From assembly GCA_019634715.1 (NCBI GenBank), contig JAHCAU010000012.1, forward strand, positions 47,491-111,490: a stretch of 64,000 nt of DNA, written 5' to 3'. The notes under the pieces were generated by a model. The model was given only the letters and a program-made list of their open reading frames with translations. It was not told the origin of the DNA and did not search any database. Source of the DNA: Lysobacter sp. Lineage in GTDB: Bacteria > Pseudomonadota > Gammaproteobacteria > Xanthomonadales > Xanthomonadaceae. Shown here piece after piece: positions 19,339 to 50,080 of the stretch (positions are counted from its first letter, which is position 1; every line of letters starts with the position of its first letter). The position numbers and the translations under genes were made by a program.

Positions 19339-19608
19339 ATGAGGACGGAAGGACATGCCGACGATCCACGCGACAGTGAAGTCGAACAGGCGCTGCTCGA
19401 TTACCTCGGACGGCATCCGCTGGCTGCGGACACACTTGAAGGCATCGGCGACCGCTGGCTTCCGCCGCCGCGTGCGTTCACGCGCCAGCGCGTCGAGGAT
19501 GCGCTGCGCCGCCTCGTCGACGATGGTGTGCTGCAGGTGCGCCGGCTGCCGAACGGCGATGTCCTGTACGCATCCATCCCGTCGCTGCGCGCGCCGCCTC
19601 CGCCCTGA
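19339..19608 (+). CDS. Small winged-helix-like protein, first gene of the eCIS operon
   Basis: EVEQALLDYLGRHPLAADTLEGIGDRWL...VEDALRRLVDDGVLQVRRLPNGDVLY shows a helix-helix-helix plus beta-hairpin pattern and high GC3. Confidence 0.7.
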   Translation: MRTEGHADDPRDSEVEQALLDYLGRHPLAADTLEGIGDRWLPPPRAFTRQRVEDALRRLVDDGVLQVRRLPNGDVLYASIPSLRAPPPP

Positions 19609-19691
19609 TCCATTCCCGAACCGCTGAACCCGCATCGCATCGGGCCGGCGTCGCGCCGGTCGCTCATTCGATTCCACCAAGGAGAACGGTT

Positions 19692-21413
19692 ATGCCAGCT
19701 GCGCTCACTCATCCGGGCGTCTACGTCGAGGAAATCCCCAGCGGCGTGCGGACCATCACAGGCGTCTCGACCTCGATCACGGCCTTCATCGGCAGGGCCA
19801 CGCGCGGACCGGTGAACAAGGCGACCGTGGTCAACGGTTTCGGCGATTTCGAAACCCGCTTCGGCAGTCTGTCGAACGATTCCGCGCTCGGTTTCGCGGT
19901 GCGCGATTTCTTCCTCAACGGCGGCAGCCAGGCGGTGATCGTGCGCCTGTATCGTGCCGAAACAGCCAACATTCCCAATTCCAATCCGCCCGCGCCCCCC
20001 GTGGCGAAGCGGACATTCAGCGTCGGCGACCTCGACTTCATCGCGGCGAGCGAAGGGCGCTGGGGCAACGGGCTGCGGGTCGCGGTCGACCTGGACAACA
20101 TCACCGACGCCGCTGCGCTCACGCTGGGCGTGGCCAAGTCCGCACTGTTCAACCTGAGCGTGCGCGATGCCGCGACCGGACGGTCGGAGCGCTACCTCAA
20201 TCTCACCGCCATCGAGAGTCCGCGCCGCGTCGATCGCGTGCTGGCCGAAGGCTCCACGCTGATCCGCTACGACGGCGCGCCCGAGGGCACCGAATCCATC
20301 GCCGCGGGCAAGGATGCCTTGAGCGCGCTGGAAGACACGCTCGCGGCGAAGAAGAAGGCGCTGAGCGACGCACGCAATGCCGGACAGCCGGATCTGTCCG
20401 ACGAGATCGCGGACGTCGCCACGGCGCAGACCGCGCTCGACGACGCGCTCAATGCTGCGGCGAAAGCCGTCTCCGACGGTCTGCCGCTGGCGGTGGGCGA
20501 CTTCCTGCCCGCCAACGGCGAAAGCGAGAAGAAGGGCCTCTATGCGCTCGAGCAGACGGATCTCTTCAACCTGCTCTGCATCCCGCCCTATCGTGGATCG
20601 AACGACACCGTCGATGTGGACGTCGGCGTGATCTCCGCCGCCGCCGCCTACTGCGAAAAACGCCGCGCGATGCTGCTGGTCGATGCGCCGAAGCCGTGGA
20701 CCAGCAAGGACAAGGCGCGCGAGGGCTTCACCGACGCCGACAACGACAACGTCGGCACCCGCAGCCGCAATGCCGCGCTGTTCTTCCCGCGCCTGAGTCT
20801 GCCCAACCCGCTGCGCGACAACCAGTACGAAACCTTCGCCGCCTGCGGCGCGGTCGCCGGCGTGTTCGCGCGCACCGATGCGACGCGCGGCGTGTGGAAG
20901 GCGCCGGCCGGTCTCGACGCCACCCTGGTCGGCGTGCCGAAGCTGTCGGTGCCGCTGACCGACGCCGAGAACGGCGAACTCAACCCGCACGGCATCAACT
21001 GCCTGCGCGCGCTGCCGGCGAGCGGGCGGGTGGTCTGGGGTTCGCGCACGCTGCGCGGTTCGGACCAGCTGGCCGACGAGTACAAGTACGTGCCGGTGCG
21101 GCGGACCGCGCTGTTCATCGAGGAAAGCCTGTACCGAGGCCTGCAGTGGGCGGTGTTCGAACCCAACGACGAGCCGCTGTGGGCACAGATCCGGCTCAAC
21201 GTCGGCGCGTTCATGCACAACCTGTTCCGGCAGGGCGCGTTCCAGGGCAGTTCGCCGCGCGACGCCTACTTCGTGCGCTGCGACAAGGAGACCACGACCC
21301 AGAACGACATCAACCTCGGCATCGTCAATGTCGTGGTCGGTTTCGCGCCGCTGAAGCCGGCGGAATTCGTGGTCCTGAAGCTGCAGCAGATCGCCGGCCA
21401 GATCGACGTCTGA
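19692..21413 (+). CDS. Contractile tail sheath protein (Afp2/3/4-like)
   Basis: N-terminal HPGVYVEEIPSGVRTITGVSTSITAFIG, GVWKAPAG, YVPVRR, WAVFEPNDEPLW and VGFAPLKPAEFV. Confidence 0.96.
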   Translation: MPAALTHPGVYVEEIPSGVRTITGVSTSITAFIGRATRGPVNKATVVNGFGDFETRFGSLSNDSALGFAVRDFFLNGGSQAVIVRLYRAETANIPNSNPPAPPVAKRTFSVGDLDFIAASEGRWGNGLRVAVDLDNITDAAALTLGVAKSALFNLSVRDAATGRSERYLNLTAIESPRRVDRVLAEGSTLIRYDGAPEGTESIAAGKDALSALEDTLAAKKKALSDARNAGQPDLSDEIADVATAQTALDDALNAAAKAVSDGLPLAVGDFLPANGESEKKGLYALEQTDLFNLLCIPPYRGSNDTVDVDVGVISAAAAYCEKRRAMLLVDAPKPWTSKDKAREGFTDADNDNVGTRSRNAALFFPRLSLPNPLRDNQYETFAACGAVAGVFARTDATRGVWKAPAGLDATLVGVPKLSVPLTDAENGELNPHGINCLRALPASGRVVWGSRTLRGSDQLADEYKYVPVRRTALFIEESLYRGLQWAVFEPNDEPLWAQIRLNVGAFMHNLFRQGAFQGSSPRDAYFVRCDKETTTQNDINLGIVNVVVGFAPLKPAEFVVLKLQQIAGQIDV

Positions 21414-48441: not shown

Positions 48442-48460
48442 AGCCGAAAGGGACGCAACC

Positions 48461-50080
48461 ATGAAAGGCGACTTCTCCCGGGTGACCTTCGATCCCCGAC
48501 ACCACTACAGCCAGGTGTTCCTGCAGCAGGGACGCGTGACCCTGGACGCCGATCCCAACGAGCAGGGCGCGATCCTGCTGCACGTGCTGCGCACGATGGC
48601 GCGCGACCTGTTCGGTCCCTATGCCGGCCCGGTCGACCATGCCGGCTTCGCGCTGTCGTTGCCGTCCGCGCCGGCGGGCACGACGCCGAAGCTCGTGTTT
48701 TCGGCGGGACGCTATTACGTCGACGGCATCCTCTGCGAGACCGACGGCGGCGATTACGCCAGCCAGCCGCATCACCGGCCGGCACCGCCGAACGGCAACG
48801 ATCCCGGCGCCGACCCGCTGCGCAGGTGGCTGGAGACGCGCAGCACCGAGAACAGGAAGTTCTGGGTCTATCTCGACGTGTGGGAGCGGCACGTTACCGC
48901 CGTCGAGCAACCGTGGCTGCGCGAAGCCGCGCTGGGCGGCCCGGACACCTGCAGTCGCGCCCAGGTGGTCTGGCAGATCCGCTCGCTCGAACTCGAGGCC
49001 ATCCTGGCGACGTTCAAGCAGCGGCTGGAGATGCTGCAGATCCGCCTGAAAAACACCAAGGACGAGCGAGAGCGCGCCGGGATCGAGCGCTGGATCAAGC
49101 GCATCGAGGACGACATGGCCGCGCTCGACGGCCGCGGCGACGGCAACGGCTGCGCCGCGCCGCTGGACGCGCTGCGTCGTTTCGACCTGCCGGAGCTGGC
49201 CGCGCGCATCGATCCGGGCCATCGCGTCGACGATCCCTGCGTGATGAGCCCGGAGTCCGACTATCGCGGCGCCGAGAACCATCTGTACCGGGTCGAGATC
49301 CATCGCGGCGGTTCCGGTGCGCAGGCGAGCTTCAAGTGGTCGCGCGACAACGGCAGCGTGCTCGCCGCCTGGCTGTCGAGCGCAGGCGGCCGCATCCGCC
49401 TCGGCAACACGCGCGGTTTCTCGGCCGATGCCTGGGTCGAACTGACCAACGACGACGACGACCTGCAGGGACGTCCCGGCGAACTGCGCAGGATCCTCAG
49501 CGTGGACGGCGACGCGCTGGTGCTCGACCGCGCGCCGGACAAGCAGGTTGGCGTGGGTGCGAAAGCGCGACGCTGGGACCAGGTCGAGCGGGCCGACGCA
49601 CCGCTCACCGACGAAGGTGCGGTCCCGGTCGGACAGGCCAGCGCCAGCGATCCGAACTGGATCGATCTGGAGGATGGCGTGCAGGTCCGCTTCGCGCCCG
49701 ATCGCGAATACCGGAGCGGCGACTACTGGCTGTTCGCCGCGCGCGTGGCGACCGGCCGCCTCGAATGGCCGAACGACGACAAGGGCGACGCCCGCCTGCA
49801 GATGCCGCGCGGCATCGAGCACCACTACGCGCCGCTCGGAGGCATCGGCCTGGAGAACGGCGTCCCGACGATCTTCCCGTGCACCTGCGAGGTCCACCCG
49901 GTGAATACCTGCGGCCTGCTTGGCCGGCGACTGCAGGACGATCGCAACCTCGTCAAGGATCCGGCCGGCAGGGTCGAGCCGCAGCCGGCACCGGTGGCGC
50001 CCCCGGTGCCCAAGGAAAATACCGCCGTCGCCAAGTCGAGGGGGCGGGCGGCGAAGAAGCCGAACGAGCCGAAGCCCTGA
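48461..50080 (+). CDS. DUF6519 protein (short form)
   Basis: MKGDFSR...QQGRVTLDADPNE, GRYYVDGILCE, VYLDVWER, YRGAENHLYRVEIH, FKWSRDNGS, GDYWLF and GIEHHYAPL. Confidence 0.85.
   Translation: MKGDFSRVTFDPRHHYSQVFLQQGRVTLDADPNEQGAILLHVLRTMARDLFGPYAGPVDHAGFALSLPSAPAGTTPKLVFSAGRYYVDGILCETDGGDYASQPHHRPAPPNGNDPGADPLRRWLETRSTENRKFWVYLDVWERHVTAVEQPWLREAALGGPDTCSRAQVVWQIRSLELEAILATFKQRLEMLQIRLKNTKDERERAGIERWIKRIEDDMAALDGRGDGNGCAAPLDALRRFDLPELAARIDPGHRVDDPCVMSPESDYRGAENHLYRVEIHRGGSGAQASFKWSRDNGSVLAAWLSSAGGRIRLGNTRGFSADAWVELTNDDDDLQGRPGELRRILSVDGDALVLDRAPDKQVGVGAKARRWDQVERADAPLTDEGAVPVGQASASDPNWIDLEDGVQVRFAPDREYRSGDYWLFAARVATGRLEWPNDDKGDARLQMPRGIEHHYAPLGGIGLENGVPTIFPCTCEVHPVNTCGLLGRRLQDDRNLVKDPAGRVEPQPAPVAPPVPKENTAVAKSRGRAAKKPNEPKP

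What the first reader, a model, noticed from the sequence alone, without database searches (positions are those of the whole stretch)
19339..50080. Apparently complete 31-kb eCIS in a Xanthomonadales-like genome
Seen: one sheath, one tube, cap, ATPase, two DUF4157 proteins, split hub/spike/PAAR, gp25, two J-like proteins, a gp7-like protein and DUF6519, all as intact coupled ORFs. Known: this gene set defines eCIS rather than T6SS or prophage. The best-studied systems (Afp, PVC, MAC) typically have a tape measure and a fibre gene, and Afp and PVC have several sheath or tube paralogs. Inference: a less-studied DUF6519/DUF4157-type eCIS with unknown target.
Basis: partly seen in the sequence, partly recalled or inferred. 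Interest (0 to 1): 0.78.

Follow-up and report, generated by a model that had tools for sequence, protein, structure and literature searches.

The report
Intact sigma-54-driven contractile injection system operon
A Lysobacter-like bacterium carries a complete, intact 31-kb operon for a phage-tail-like injection machine of a widespread but almost unstudied lineage; the gene set is real, but whether the machine works outside the cell is not settled.

Summary
Window 19339-50080 is one same-strand block of 21 tightly packed intact ORFs. They encode sheath, tube, Pvc16-type cap, AAA+ ATPase, two DUF4157 proteins (one of 2758 aa), a split gp27-like hub, gp5-like spike and tip, gp25, two baseplate-J proteins, a 782-aa protein and DUF6519. 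One is a proline-rich protein with conserved ends, found in every related locus covering that region; it is a candidate length ruler.

The 782-aa protein is predicted to carry a tailspike-like beta-helix. A recent catalogue lists DUF6519 as a fibre anchor (eBAP5), so "no fibre" is too strong. "No Afp14-type tape measure" is correct.

An adjacent sensor-less sigma-54 activator and a perfect -24/-12 promoter, conserved in five related loci, drive the operon.

The locus belongs to the "tme-like" cluster group defined from Streptomyces davawensis. The closest solved sheaths come from cytoplasmic Streptomyces and membrane-anchored haloarchaeal systems, so extracellular action is only about even odds.

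No locus with sheath or hub at 90% identity or more exists outside this genome. Verdict: new member of a known kind, moderate interest.

The parts
17949..19082 (+). Sensor-less sigma-54 enhancer-binding protein (AAA+ plus Fis-type HTH), proposed activator of the operon
   Evidence: Sigma54_activat 2.5e-62 and HTH_8. Walker A GETGTGKE and loop GAFTDA are seen in the translation. Collinear homologues at 62-68% identity sit upstream of the related loci G091, G287, L104 and L117.
19287..19302 (+). Sigma-54 (-24/-12) promoter TGGCAC-N5-TTGCT
   Evidence: It is the only zero-mismatch match in the 64-kb window. Equivalent sites occur at the same place in G091, G287, L104, L117 and L114, although the intergenic regions are otherwise divergent. 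rpoN is present in the genome.
19339..19608 (+). 89-aa first gene of the operon, possibly winged-helix-like; function unknown
   Evidence: ORF read from the sequence. Only weak winged-helix hits (GntR and DprA_WH, E about 0.04). Homologues sit in the same position in G091, G287, L104, L117 and L114.
19692..21413 (+). Contractile sheath (573 aa)
   Evidence: Phage_sheath_1 plus 1C. The closest solved chains are 8bky, 8bl4 and 9ezm at E 1e-67 to 1e-69. It is the only phage-type sheath in the genome.
21457..21981 (+). Inner tube protein (174 aa)
   Evidence: Phage_T4_gp19 8.4e-46. Its 90%-identity cluster has 3867 members from many taxa.
22001..22768 (+). T4_baseplate-like protein with two CxxC zinc-ribbon motifs (255 aa), likely an assembly factor
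   Evidence: PF12322 1.3e-6 and zinc-ribbon hints. Conserved in 25 related loci.
22780..23694 (+). 304-aa Pro/Ala-rich protein with conserved N- and C-termini; candidate tail-length or lumen protein
   Evidence: An ORF sits in the same slot, between the zinc-ribbon protein and the cap, in 22 of 22 related loci that cover the region. The N-terminal motif is F-L-x-R-L...P-R...F-E-P and the C-terminal motif is IGR-[IV]-E-[VI]-RA ... SL-D-D-YL. Length varies from 145 to 358 aa. No Pfam or PDB match.
23691..24980 (+). Cap / tail terminator (Pvc16_N, 429 aa)
   Evidence: Pvc16_N 2.5e-48.
25000..27126 (+). Afp15-like AAA+ ATPase with an N-terminal winged-helix domain. The ORF is open from 24859; the probable start is M48 at 25000.
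   Evidence: AAA 1.2e-27 and WHD 4.9e-18. The main alignment to the G091 homologue starts at residue 48.
27123..27569 (+). 148-aa protein that precedes the DUF4157 genes
   Evidence: No family match. Weak homologues (28-34% over about 80-110 aa) lie in the same slot in L034, L126, L006, L004 and L106.
27566..35842 (+). 2758-aa DUF4157 protein. Order of parts: HExxH core domain, about 900 aa mostly helical, one conserved hydrophobic segment (aa about 1074-1105), coiled-coil-like helices, then about 1000 aa of beta-sheet. Candidate cargo.
   Evidence: eCIS_core at aa 95-168. At least 47 homologue clusters of 1.9-2.8 kaa (most 2.4-2.8 kaa) carry no other Pfam domain except for one distant member. 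The 40-sequence alignment has 51% mean column identity; the HExxH residues and P1079 are invariant and P1081 is nearly so. The AF2 model of aa 1560-2758 shows a continuous antiparallel meander with pLDDT 80-90. GC drops to 63% here.
35839..36759 (+). Second, small DUF4157 protein (about 306 aa), candidate adaptor or small cargo
   Evidence: eCIS_core 1.4e-28. Homologues occupy the same slot in most related loci.
36778..37431 (+). 217-aa Cis7/Afp7-like baseplate-core protein
   Evidence: The profile hits 9rce_H (E 2e-4) and weakly All3321 of the Anabaena tCIS. Weak CIS_tube hit at E 0.038. No profile similarity to the tube protein.
37454..37777 (+). 107-aa conserved protein, LysM/gpX-like by eye only
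   Evidence: Conserved at 40-83% identity in 88 loci. No family match. The LysM-like reading is inference from the sequence pattern.
37781..38908 (+). gp27-like hub (375 aa), the N-terminal half of a split VgrG
   Evidence: The profile hits VgrG chain 9rce_F at E 1.7e-7. Eighty related loci across many phyla.
38905..39441 (+). gp5-like OB-fold spike (178 aa)
   Evidence: Phage_base_V 3.6e-14.
39475..39834 (+). 119-aa Cys-containing protein in the spike-tip (PAAR) position
   Evidence: Assigned by position and size only. No PAAR or CIS_spike_tip match. Conserved in 61 loci.
39849..40211 (+). gp25-like sheath initiator (120 aa)
   Evidence: GPW_gp25 2.4e-16.
40256..42775 (+). Baseplate wedge protein J1 (839 aa, Cis11-like)
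   Evidence: TIGR02243 2.2e-102. Hits Streptomyces baseplate-J chain 9gtp_1K at E 3.7e-17.
42852..46076 (+). Baseplate wedge protein J2 (1074 aa)
   Evidence: TIGR02243 1.8e-75 and Baseplate_J 7e-6.
46093..48441 (+). 782-aa peripheral baseplate protein: N-terminal helical module plus a right-handed beta-helix (tailspike / pectin-lyase-like)
   Evidence: AF2 model with a 41-sequence alignment, pLDDT 76. Foldseek matches to PL6 alginate lyases, a pectin methylesterase and the CBA120 tailspike (probability 0.77-1.0, E 2e-3 to 3e-2). Matches to phage tailspikes and myovirus tail proteins in BFVD. No sequence-level hit in Pfam or PDB.
48431..50080 (+). DUF6519 protein (549 aa), eBAP5-type baseplate-anchored fibre or crown protein without a C-terminal extension
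   Evidence: DUF6519 2.9e-89, covering residues 11-537 of 549. The eBAP5 assignment comes from PMC12923769. No solved relative by sequence.

Best explanation
This is an intact chromosomal operon for a contractile injection system (CIS) of the Afp/PVC superfamily. It belongs to the widespread 'tme-like' lineage, which has a giant N-terminal-DUF4157 gene just upstream of the baseplate genes.

Shown:
- A sensor-less sigma-54 activator gene sits next to a conserved -24/-12 promoter, which lies 36 nt upstream of the first of 21 coupled genes.
- The genes encode every core module: split gp27-like hub, gp5-like spike and tip protein; a Cis7-like protein; gp25; two J-type wedge proteins; a peripheral 782-aa protein; DUF6519; tube; sheath; Pvc16 cap; AAA+ ATPase.

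Inferred mechanism:
1. The activator turns the operon on through sigma-54.
2. The baseplate assembles around the hub and spike.
3. Tube and sheath polymerise, possibly along the Pro-rich 304-aa protein as ruler, until the cap closes them.
4. The ATPase and the small DUF4157 protein help load the 2758-aa DUF4157 protein as cargo.
5. The particle is released and binds a surface polysaccharide through the beta-helix of the 782-aa protein and the DUF6519 trimer.
6. It contracts and expels spike and cargo. The cargo's conserved hydrophobic segment and long beta-sheet then act on the target membrane.

Odds: about 0.95 that it is an intact CIS of this lineage, about 0.5 that it acts extracellularly, and about 0.5 that the giant protein is the ejected cargo.
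For: - Family matches for all core parts.
- One strand, coupled ORFs and no broken genes.
- The same gene order in 80 loci from many phyla and in two related genomes end to end.
- Sigma-54 promoter unique in the window and conserved in five related loci, with rpoN present.
- The giant family is conserved over its full length in at least 47 clusters.
- A Streptomyces locus has a 2176-aa DUF4157 ORF in the same slot, which matches the published tme-like group definition (PMC11126660).
- DUF4157 proteins are cargo in AlgoCIS and are secreted by the haloarchaeal system.
- A tailspike-like beta-helix in the 782-aa protein and an eBAP5 fibre anchor favour recognition of an external surface.
- No strongly hydrophobic (TM-like) segment was found in the 782-aa or DUF6519 protein. 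The wedge protein J2 has one hydrophobic stretch at aa 275-293.
Against: - No experiment exists on this lineage in any Gram-negative bacterium.
- The nearest solved sheaths belong to non-extracellular systems.
- The one studied cluster of the same synteny group targets the producer's own envelope.
- DUF6519 here has no receptor-binding extension.
- No lysis genes are present for release.
- Foldseek E-values for the beta-helix are weak (2e-3 and worse).
- The fold of the giant C-terminus has no convincing structural match (TM at most 0.17).
- The ruler role of the Pro-rich protein rests only on position and architecture.
Confidence: 0.6

Rival explanations
1. The same machine is a cytoplasmic, producer-directed CIS, as in Streptomyces. 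Particles stay in the cell and fire into the producer's own envelope under stress. The giant DUF4157 protein inserts its hydrophobic segment into the inner membrane, causing regulated cell death, envelope remodelling or DNA release.
For: - The sheath is closest to the Streptomyces cytoplasmic CIS.
- The cluster shares synteny and 37-58% identity of baseplate proteins with a Streptomyces tme-type locus.
- S. davawensis Tme is membrane-localised in the producer.
- No lysis cassette is present.
- The DUF6519 protein lacks a receptor-binding extension.
Against: - Streptomyces type IId systems lack fibre-like genes and need the membrane protein CisA downstream of the baseplate genes. Here DUF6519 and a tailspike-like beta-helix protein are present. 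The next gene downstream is rpoH.
- The host is a unicellular diderm with no developmental cycle.
Confidence: 0.3
2. It is a membrane-anchored, contact-dependent, T6SS-like CIS, as in haloarchaea or Amoebophilus.
For: The second-closest solved sheath is the haloarchaeal T6SS-like system (9ezm, E 1.5e-67). That system secretes DUF4157 proteins.
Against: - No multi-pass membrane protein lies in or beside the locus.
- The hydropathy scan found no strongly hydrophobic segment in the 782-aa or DUF6519 protein, and only single stretches in J2, the hub, the cap and the giant.
- The genome already has a canonical T6SS elsewhere.
- A diderm envelope would need a trans-envelope complex, and none is encoded here.
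Confidence: 0.07
3. It is a tailocin or a decayed myovirus prophage tail module, not a cargo-delivering CIS.
For: Sheath, tube, gp25, J-type wedge proteins and a tailspike-like beta-helix are also tailocin parts.
Against: - The Pvc16_N cap, Afp15-like AAA+ ATPase and two DUF4157 proteins are CIS markers that R-type tailocins lack.
- No holin or endolysin, integrase, head or packaging genes in or next to the locus.
- The same operon is conserved across phyla.
Confidence: 0.03

Closest known systems
Streptomyces davawensis CIS with the tape-measure-related effector Tme, and the 'tme-like' cluster group (Nagakubo et al. 2024, PMC11126660)
   Same: - The largest ORF of the cluster carries an N-terminal DUF4157 domain and sits just upstream of the baseplate genes.
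- It has a hydrophobic segment and coiled-coil-like helices.
- The baseplate gene order is the same. A Streptomyces locus of this type (L082) shares 37-58% identity for hub, spike, gp25, J1, J2 and the 782-aa protein.
- The group is described as spread across phyla, as found here.
   Different: - Beyond DUF4157, the giant protein here shows no detectable similarity to the Streptomyces one.
- It has no EndA-like nuclease or any other Pfam domain.
- It is conserved along its whole length; Tme is reported as about 70% disordered.
- It ends in about 1000 aa of predicted beta-sheet.
- The host is a diderm. Regulation is by sigma-54. DUF6519 gave no hit in the held part of the Streptomyces locus, which is cut within the homologue of the 782-aa protein, so its presence there is unknown.
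Streptomyces coelicolor CIS-Sc (type IId; PDB 8bky, 9gtp)
   Same: It has the closest solved sheath (E 1.9e-69) and the only solved baseplate-J hit. It has a single sheath and tube gene and a Pvc16-type cap. It also lacks an Afp14-type tape measure.
   Different: CIS-Sc lacks fibre-like genes and depends on the membrane protein CisA. Here DUF6519 and a beta-helix protein end the operon, and no membrane protein follows.
AlgoCIS of Algoriphagus machipongonensis (PMC8894135) and the classical eCISs (Afp, PVC, MAC)
   Same: They share the core module set, the AAA+ ATPase and the cap. AlgoCIS loads two DUF4157 proteins (Cgo1/2) in the tube lumen. This is the best precedent for DUF4157 proteins as cargo of a released particle.
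   Different: - The sheath is much more distant (E 1e-37 to 1e-45).
- Afp and PVC have several sheath and tube paralogues, a CIS_TMP tape measure and Afp13-type fibres.
- None of them has a 2.7-kaa cargo or sigma-54 control, as far as the papers read here show.
eBAP5 / DUF6519 fibre class (Levy lab catalogue, PMC12923769)
   Same: The last gene of the operon is a full-length DUF6519 match. It sits downstream of the baseplate genes, where about 90% of the catalogued fibre genes lie.
   Different: Catalogued eBAP5 fibres usually continue into macroglobulin shafts and C-terminal beta-helix or lectin domains. Here the protein ends with the DUF6519 domain, and the beta-helix lies in the preceding 782-aa gene.

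Membership tests
Afp/PVC-type contractile injection system (eCIS gene-set definition of Chen 2019 / Geller 2021) | Sheath, tube, gp25, baseplate-J and VgrG-like spike genes in one cluster | tested here: met
   Pfam, NCBIfam and PDB profile matches.
Afp/PVC-type contractile injection system (eCIS gene-set definition of Chen 2019 / Geller 2021) | Pvc16_N (DUF4255) cap, Afp15-like AAA+ ATPase and DUF4157 core domain | tested here: met
   Pvc16_N 2.5e-48, AAA 1.2e-27 and eCIS_core twice. Only these two DUF4157 genes exist in the genome.
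Afp/PVC-type contractile injection system (eCIS gene-set definition of Chen 2019 / Geller 2021) | Afp14-type tape measure (Pfam CIS_TMP) | tested here: not met
   PF19268 has no match in the whole genome at E up to 1. hmmscan of the Pro-rich ORF is empty at E up to 5. A non-homologous candidate ruler exists at 22780-23694.
Afp/PVC-type contractile injection system (eCIS gene-set definition of Chen 2019 / Geller 2021) | Tail fibre or baseplate-anchored receptor-binding protein | tested here: inconclusive
   The DUF6519 (eBAP5) domain is present but has no C-terminal binding domain. A beta-helix is predicted in the neighbouring 782-aa protein, with weak Foldseek E-values.
Afp/PVC-type contractile injection system (eCIS gene-set definition of Chen 2019 / Geller 2021) | No T6SS membrane complex or ClpV genes and no phage head, packaging or lysis genes in the locus | tested here: met
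   Pfam scans of all locus ORFs and of both flanks. TssC lies on another contig.
Afp/PVC-type contractile injection system (eCIS gene-set definition of Chen 2019 / Geller 2021) | Particles released from the producer and acting from outside on a target cell | not testable with these tools
   Needs particle purification, tomography and killing assays.
tme-like CIS cluster group (PMC11126660) | Largest ORF of the cluster with an N-terminal DUF4157 domain, just upstream of the baseplate genes, with conserved synteny | tested here: met
   The 2758-aa ORF has eCIS_core at aa 95-168. The slot and gene order match Streptomyces locus L082, which has a 2176-aa DUF4157 ORF.
tme-like CIS cluster group (PMC11126660) | [quoted passage not shown] | tested here: inconclusive
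   One strong hydrophobic segment (Kyte-Doolittle 2.0, aa 1082-1100, with invariant P1079 and nearly invariant P1081). Long helices in the AF2 model at aa about 1566-1628. No dedicated TM or coiled-coil predictor was run.
tme-like CIS cluster group (PMC11126660) | Remote homology to phage tape-measure proteins and a C-terminal EndA-like nuclease (features of Tme itself) | tested here: not met
   No Pfam match at E up to 5 in six segments. No PDB sequence match. The C-terminus is predicted as all-beta.
Streptomyces type IId cytoplasmic CIS | No fibre-like genes; a CisA-type membrane protein encoded after the baseplate genes | tested here: not met
   DUF6519 and a beta-helix protein follow the wedge genes. 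No hydrophobic protein follows; the next gene is rpoH. CisA homology itself was not searched.
Sigma-54-dependent operon | bEBP with a sigma-54 interaction domain and GAFTGA-type loop, a -24/-12 promoter, and rpoN in the genome | tested here: met
   Sigma54_activat 2.5e-62. Loop GAFTDA. Perfect TGGCAC-N5-TTGCT, unique in the window and conserved in five other loci. rpoN on contig 17. The transcription start was not tested.
Bridge-like lipid-transfer / AsmA-TamB-type repeating beta-groove proteins (considered for the giant C-terminus) | Long continuous beta-groove with sequence or structural similarity to AsmA, TamB or BLTP proteins | tested here: inconclusive
   The AF2 model shows about 700 aa of 15-24-residue antiparallel strands at pLDDT 80-90. 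Among the 50 hits listed, the most probable is the LPD-3 complex (probability 0.85), but with TM only 0.17. RHS/teneurin shells and LptD barrels score similarly. No AsmA or TamB Pfam match.

The most novel reading that the evidence does not exclude
The 2758-aa protein represents a conserved, uncharacterised family of giant CIS cargo (at least 47 clusters in several phyla, conserved over the full length). After ejection it would insert a hydrophobic hairpin into the target membrane and deploy an approximately 1000-aa beta-groove or beta-shell. That would be a membrane-bridging or lipid-handling effector unlike any enzymatic CIS or T6SS toxin known. Alternatively, this diderm system fires inward on its own envelope, as the Streptomyces systems do.
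Probability: 0.25. Interest if true: 0.75.

Novelty: new member of a known kind. Interest (0 to 1): 0.45.

Why it matters
The lineage is among the most widely spread contractile injection systems. Eighty related loci were recovered from Pseudomonadota, Acidobacteriota, Chloroflexota, Verrucomicrobiota, Gemmatimonadota, Actinomycetota and others. Yet it has been studied experimentally only in Streptomyces, where it acts inside the producer.

A culturable, unicellular Lysobacter-type host offers three practical advantages:
- a complete operon;
- an obvious genetic switch, because over-expressing one sensor-less sigma-54 activator should turn the operon on;
- a single giant candidate cargo.

Such a host would let one test directly whether this lineage is extracellular in diderms, how tail length is set without an Afp14-type tape measure, and what the giant DUF4157 proteins do. 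As a gene-cluster discovery it is not surprising, because thousands of such loci are already catalogued.

Tried and rejected
Searches and comparisons that gave nothing:
- PDB sequence or profile searches for the giant protein, the 782-aa protein, the Pro-rich protein and DUF6519 found nothing.
- Pfam at E up to 5 on six segments of the giant protein, and on the 148-aa, 107-aa, 119-aa, Pro-rich and 782-aa proteins, found nothing useful.
- A profile-profile comparison of the 217-aa protein with the tube family was negative. I therefore dropped the 'second tube paralogue' label in favour of 'Cis7-like', from the PDB profile hits.
- CIS_TMP and CIS_spike_tip family searches of the whole genome were negative.
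- The Foldseek search of the giant C-terminal model gave only low-TM matches. I do not claim a lipid-transfer fold.

Readings rejected:
- The downstream sigma factor is not part of the locus. It is RpoH by its 90%-identity cluster, and it is separated from the operon by 476 bp that include an AT-rich stretch.
- The NRPS from 53490 is a separate cluster.
- The ORF 19355-19627 from the mechanical ORF list was replaced by the 19339-19608 frame, which has homologues elsewhere.

Full report
**What is in the sequence.** The window has about 70% G+C, so mechanical ORF lists are crowded with spurious frames. Third-position GC by frame, together with reading of the junctions, gives one unbroken plus-strand block of 21 genes from 19339 to 50080. 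Neighbouring genes either overlap by 4 nt (ATGA) or are separated by at most about 85 nt, and no gene is interrupted.

Family searches identify the core of a contractile injection system:
- sheath: Phage_sheath_1 plus 1C
- tube: gp19 family, 8e-46
- cap: Pvc16_N, 2.5e-48
- AAA+ ATPase with a winged-helix N-domain
- two eCIS_core (DUF4157) proteins, of 2758 aa and about 306 aa
- gp5-type OB spike
- gp25
- two TIGR02243 baseplate-J proteins, of 839 and 1074 aa
- DUF6519, 3e-89

A profile of the 375-aa protein hits the gp27-like part of a solved VgrG (9rce_F, 1.7e-7). A profile of the 217-aa protein hits 9rce_H and, weakly, All3321.

The 'PAAR' label for the 119-aa protein is supported only by position. 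The 'gp7-like' label for the 782-aa protein has no sequence-family support either, and rests on position plus the fold prediction described below.

- An 89-aa first gene (19339-19608).
- A T4_baseplate-like protein with two CxxC pairs (22001-22768).
- A 304-aa Pro/Ala-rich protein (22780-23694).
- A 148-aa protein ahead of the DUF4157 genes.
- The 217-aa protein.
- A 107-aa protein.

The Pro-rich ORF is the most interesting of these. All 22 related loci that cover the region between the zinc-ribbon gene and the cap have an ORF in this slot. Its N-terminus and C-terminus (IGR-[IV]-E-[VI]-RA, about 20 residues, then SL-D-D-YL) are conserved. Its middle is of low complexity, and its length ranges from 145 to 358 aa.

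This ORF has no Pfam or PDB relative. The Afp14 family CIS_TMP finds nothing in the whole genome. A non-homologous candidate ruler is nevertheless present; that role is my inference.

**Boundaries and context.** Upstream lie a GntR/ABC/S9-peptidase unit and then a sigma-54 activator. Downstream lie rpoH, a NYN/LOTUS gene and an NRPS. There are no phage head, packaging, integrase or lysis genes. The genome (4.66 Mb, 34 contigs) has only this one phage-type sheath, and it has a canonical T6SS TssC on another contig. The RpoH 90%-identity cluster names Lysobacter brunescens and Lysobacteraceae genomes, so 'Xanthomonadales-like' is right.

**Regulation.** The activator (17949-19082) is only an AAA+ sigma-54 interaction domain plus a Fis-type HTH. 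It has Walker A GETGTGKE and loop GAFTDA. The only perfect TGGCAC-N5-TTGCW site in the 64 kb lies at 19287-19302, 36 nt upstream of the first gene.

Activator, promoter and 89-aa gene recur in the same order in several other places:
- a genome of the same genus (G091: TGGCATGAAGATTGCT);
- a genome of another genus (G287: TGGCACGCCGATTGCG);
- two metagenome contigs (L104, L117);
- a more distant locus (L114), with a weaker site.

In all of these the intergenic DNA is otherwise dissimilar. rpoN is present. Control by sigma-54 is therefore well supported by comparison, but it has not been shown by transcript data. The held literature has no report of sigma-54 control of an eCIS.

**Relatives.** The hub protein recovers 80 loci. 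They come from Lysobacteraceae (81%), Stenotrophomonas (about 75%), Bradyrhizobium, Burkholderiales, Acidobacteriota, Chloroflexota, Verrucomicrobiota, Gemmatimonadota, Myxococcota and Streptomyces (44%). The order from the 217-aa gene to DUF6519 is kept almost everywhere.

Within the host's own family the system is patchy. It was found in 17 of 300 sampled genomes, 9 of 64 genera and 2 of 10 genomes of the genus. Together with its spread across phyla, this points to horizontal transfer.

The region between the ATPase and the 217-aa gene is the variable cargo slot. G091 has a different 2465-aa DUF4157 protein there (23-35% identity), and G287 has a short DUF4157 gene plus unrelated DNA. G+C drops to 63% over the 3' half of the giant gene.

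The 90%-identity clusters of the sheath and the hub hold essentially only this genome. No near-identical locus has been characterised.

**The giant protein.** At least 47 clusters of 1.9-2.8 kaa (most 2.4-2.8 kaa) share its full length. They include Lysobacter enzymogenes proteins annotated only as 'eCIS core domain-containing'. A 40-sequence alignment has 51% mean column identity. The HExxH residues are invariant, and the hydrophobic segment near aa 1074-1105 is conserved, with P1079 invariant and P1081 nearly so. Full-length copies sit in the same slot in loci from Ideonella, other Burkholderiales and soil metagenomes.

Nothing beyond DUF4157 is recognised by Pfam, even at E = 5, or by PDB sequence search. 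An AlphaFold2 model of aa 1560-2758 was built from a shallow nine-sequence alignment and has mean pLDDT 68. It predicts two long helices and then about 700 residues of uninterrupted antiparallel meander, with 15-24-residue strands at pLDDT 80-90.

Foldseek finds only low-TM matches to other large beta-sheet assemblies: RHS and teneurin shells, LptD barrels and the LPD-3 bridge-like lipid-transfer complex. Among the 50 hits listed, LPD-3 has the highest probability (0.85), with TM 0.17. The fold class therefore stays open. My test neither confirms nor excludes that.

**The distal baseplate.** The 782-aa protein has no sequence-level relative in Pfam or PDB. A model from a 41-sequence alignment (pLDDT 76) shows an N-terminal helical module and a right-handed beta-helix at about aa 405-660. 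The beta-helix matches PL6 alginate lyases, pectin methylesterase and the CBA120 tailspike (probability 0.77-1.0, E 2e-3 to 3e-2). It also matches phage tailspikes and pectate-lyase proteins in BFVD. Short N-terminal matches go to myovirus tail proteins.

DUF6519 was recently defined as the fifth class of eCIS baseplate anchor (eBAP5, 658 genes). Such fibres often end in beta-helix or lectin domains (PMC12923769). Here the DUF6519 protein stops at the end of the domain (residues 11-537 of 549), and the beta-helix lies in the gene before it.

**Which known system it is.** Against solved structures, the sheath is closest to the Streptomyces CIS (8bky/9gtp 1.9e-69, 8bl4 8.6e-67) and to the haloarchaeal T6SS-like system (9ezm 1.5e-67). 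PVC, AFP, the Anabaena tCIS and AlgoCIS are much more distant, at 1e-37 to 1e-45. J1 hits only the Streptomyces baseplate-J chain.

Nagakubo et al. defined a group of CIS clusters 'containing tme-like genes'. The group is recognised by the length of the ORF, an N-terminal DUF4157 and conserved synteny, and it is spread across phyla (PMC11126660). The window meets those criteria. A Streptomyces locus in my set has a 2176-aa DUF4157 ORF in the same slot. The Tme-specific features are absent: tape-measure homology, the EndA nuclease and extensive disorder.

**Mode of action.** This is the main open point.
- Streptomyces CISs are cytoplasmic. They lack fibres and need the membrane protein CisA (PMC12237407).
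- The haloarchaeal system is membrane-anchored through a six-helix membrane protein (PMC11566945).
- The Anabaena system is anchored by a transmembrane helix in its fibre-like Cis13 (PMC8894136).

In the window I find no strongly hydrophobic segment in the 782-aa or DUF6519 protein. J2, the hub and the cap each have a single hydrophobic stretch, which I take to be buried. No membrane protein lies next to the operon. I do find a tailspike-like beta-helix and a fibre-anchor domain. That tilts the balance towards action from outside, but only to about even odds, given the phylogenetic neighbours and the absence of lysis genes.

**Verdict.** I rate it a new member of a known kind. Its main value is as a tractable diderm model with a one-gene switch and a single giant candidate cargo.

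Noticed in passing
window 21457-21981: The tube protein sits in a 90%-identity cluster of 3867 member sequences. Named members come from Rhodanobacter, Rhizomicrobium and even an archaeal Methanothrix genome bin. This is extreme conservation or very recent spread compared with the rest of the operon.
   Followed up: no
window 28300-30000 (giant protein aa about 250-280, 515-545 and 735-765): Three copies of a motif of the form D-W-x-V-x-D-x-E-A...A-Y...K-x-L-P recur about 220-260 aa apart in the helical N-terminal half. This suggests three repeats of an unknown helical domain. The motif columns are nearly invariant in the family alignment.
   Followed up: partly
window 32001-36000: G+C falls to 63% over the 3' half of the giant gene, against about 70% in the rest of the operon. 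A related genome of the same genus has a different giant gene in this slot. The cargo module seems to be exchanged independently of the machine.
   Followed up: partly
window 1148-4477 (minus strand): An 1109-aa protein made largely of ankyrin repeats (Ank_2 5.6e-76). This is unusual for a free-living bacterium and may be a secreted effector of another system.
   Followed up: no
window 12266-17797 (minus strand): A GntR-family regulator, an ABC ATPase, a 740-aa protein with no Pfam match and an S9 peptidase lie in one direction.
   Followed up: no
window 53490-64000: A large NRPS. One ORF of 3351 aa has three C-A-T modules, and a second ORF starts with a TubC-type docking domain and runs off the window.
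   Followed up: no
G000 contig 12, about 201074-201994: The genome also encodes a canonical T6SS sheath subunit TssC/VipB (2e-113). The organism therefore has two unrelated contractile systems.
   Followed up: no
window 46093-48441 (782-aa protein aa about 530-680): Several cysteines are invariant or nearly so across 41 homologues (C547, C656, C674, C733). Most lie within or just after the predicted beta-helix, which suggests metal binding or disulfides.
   Followed up: no
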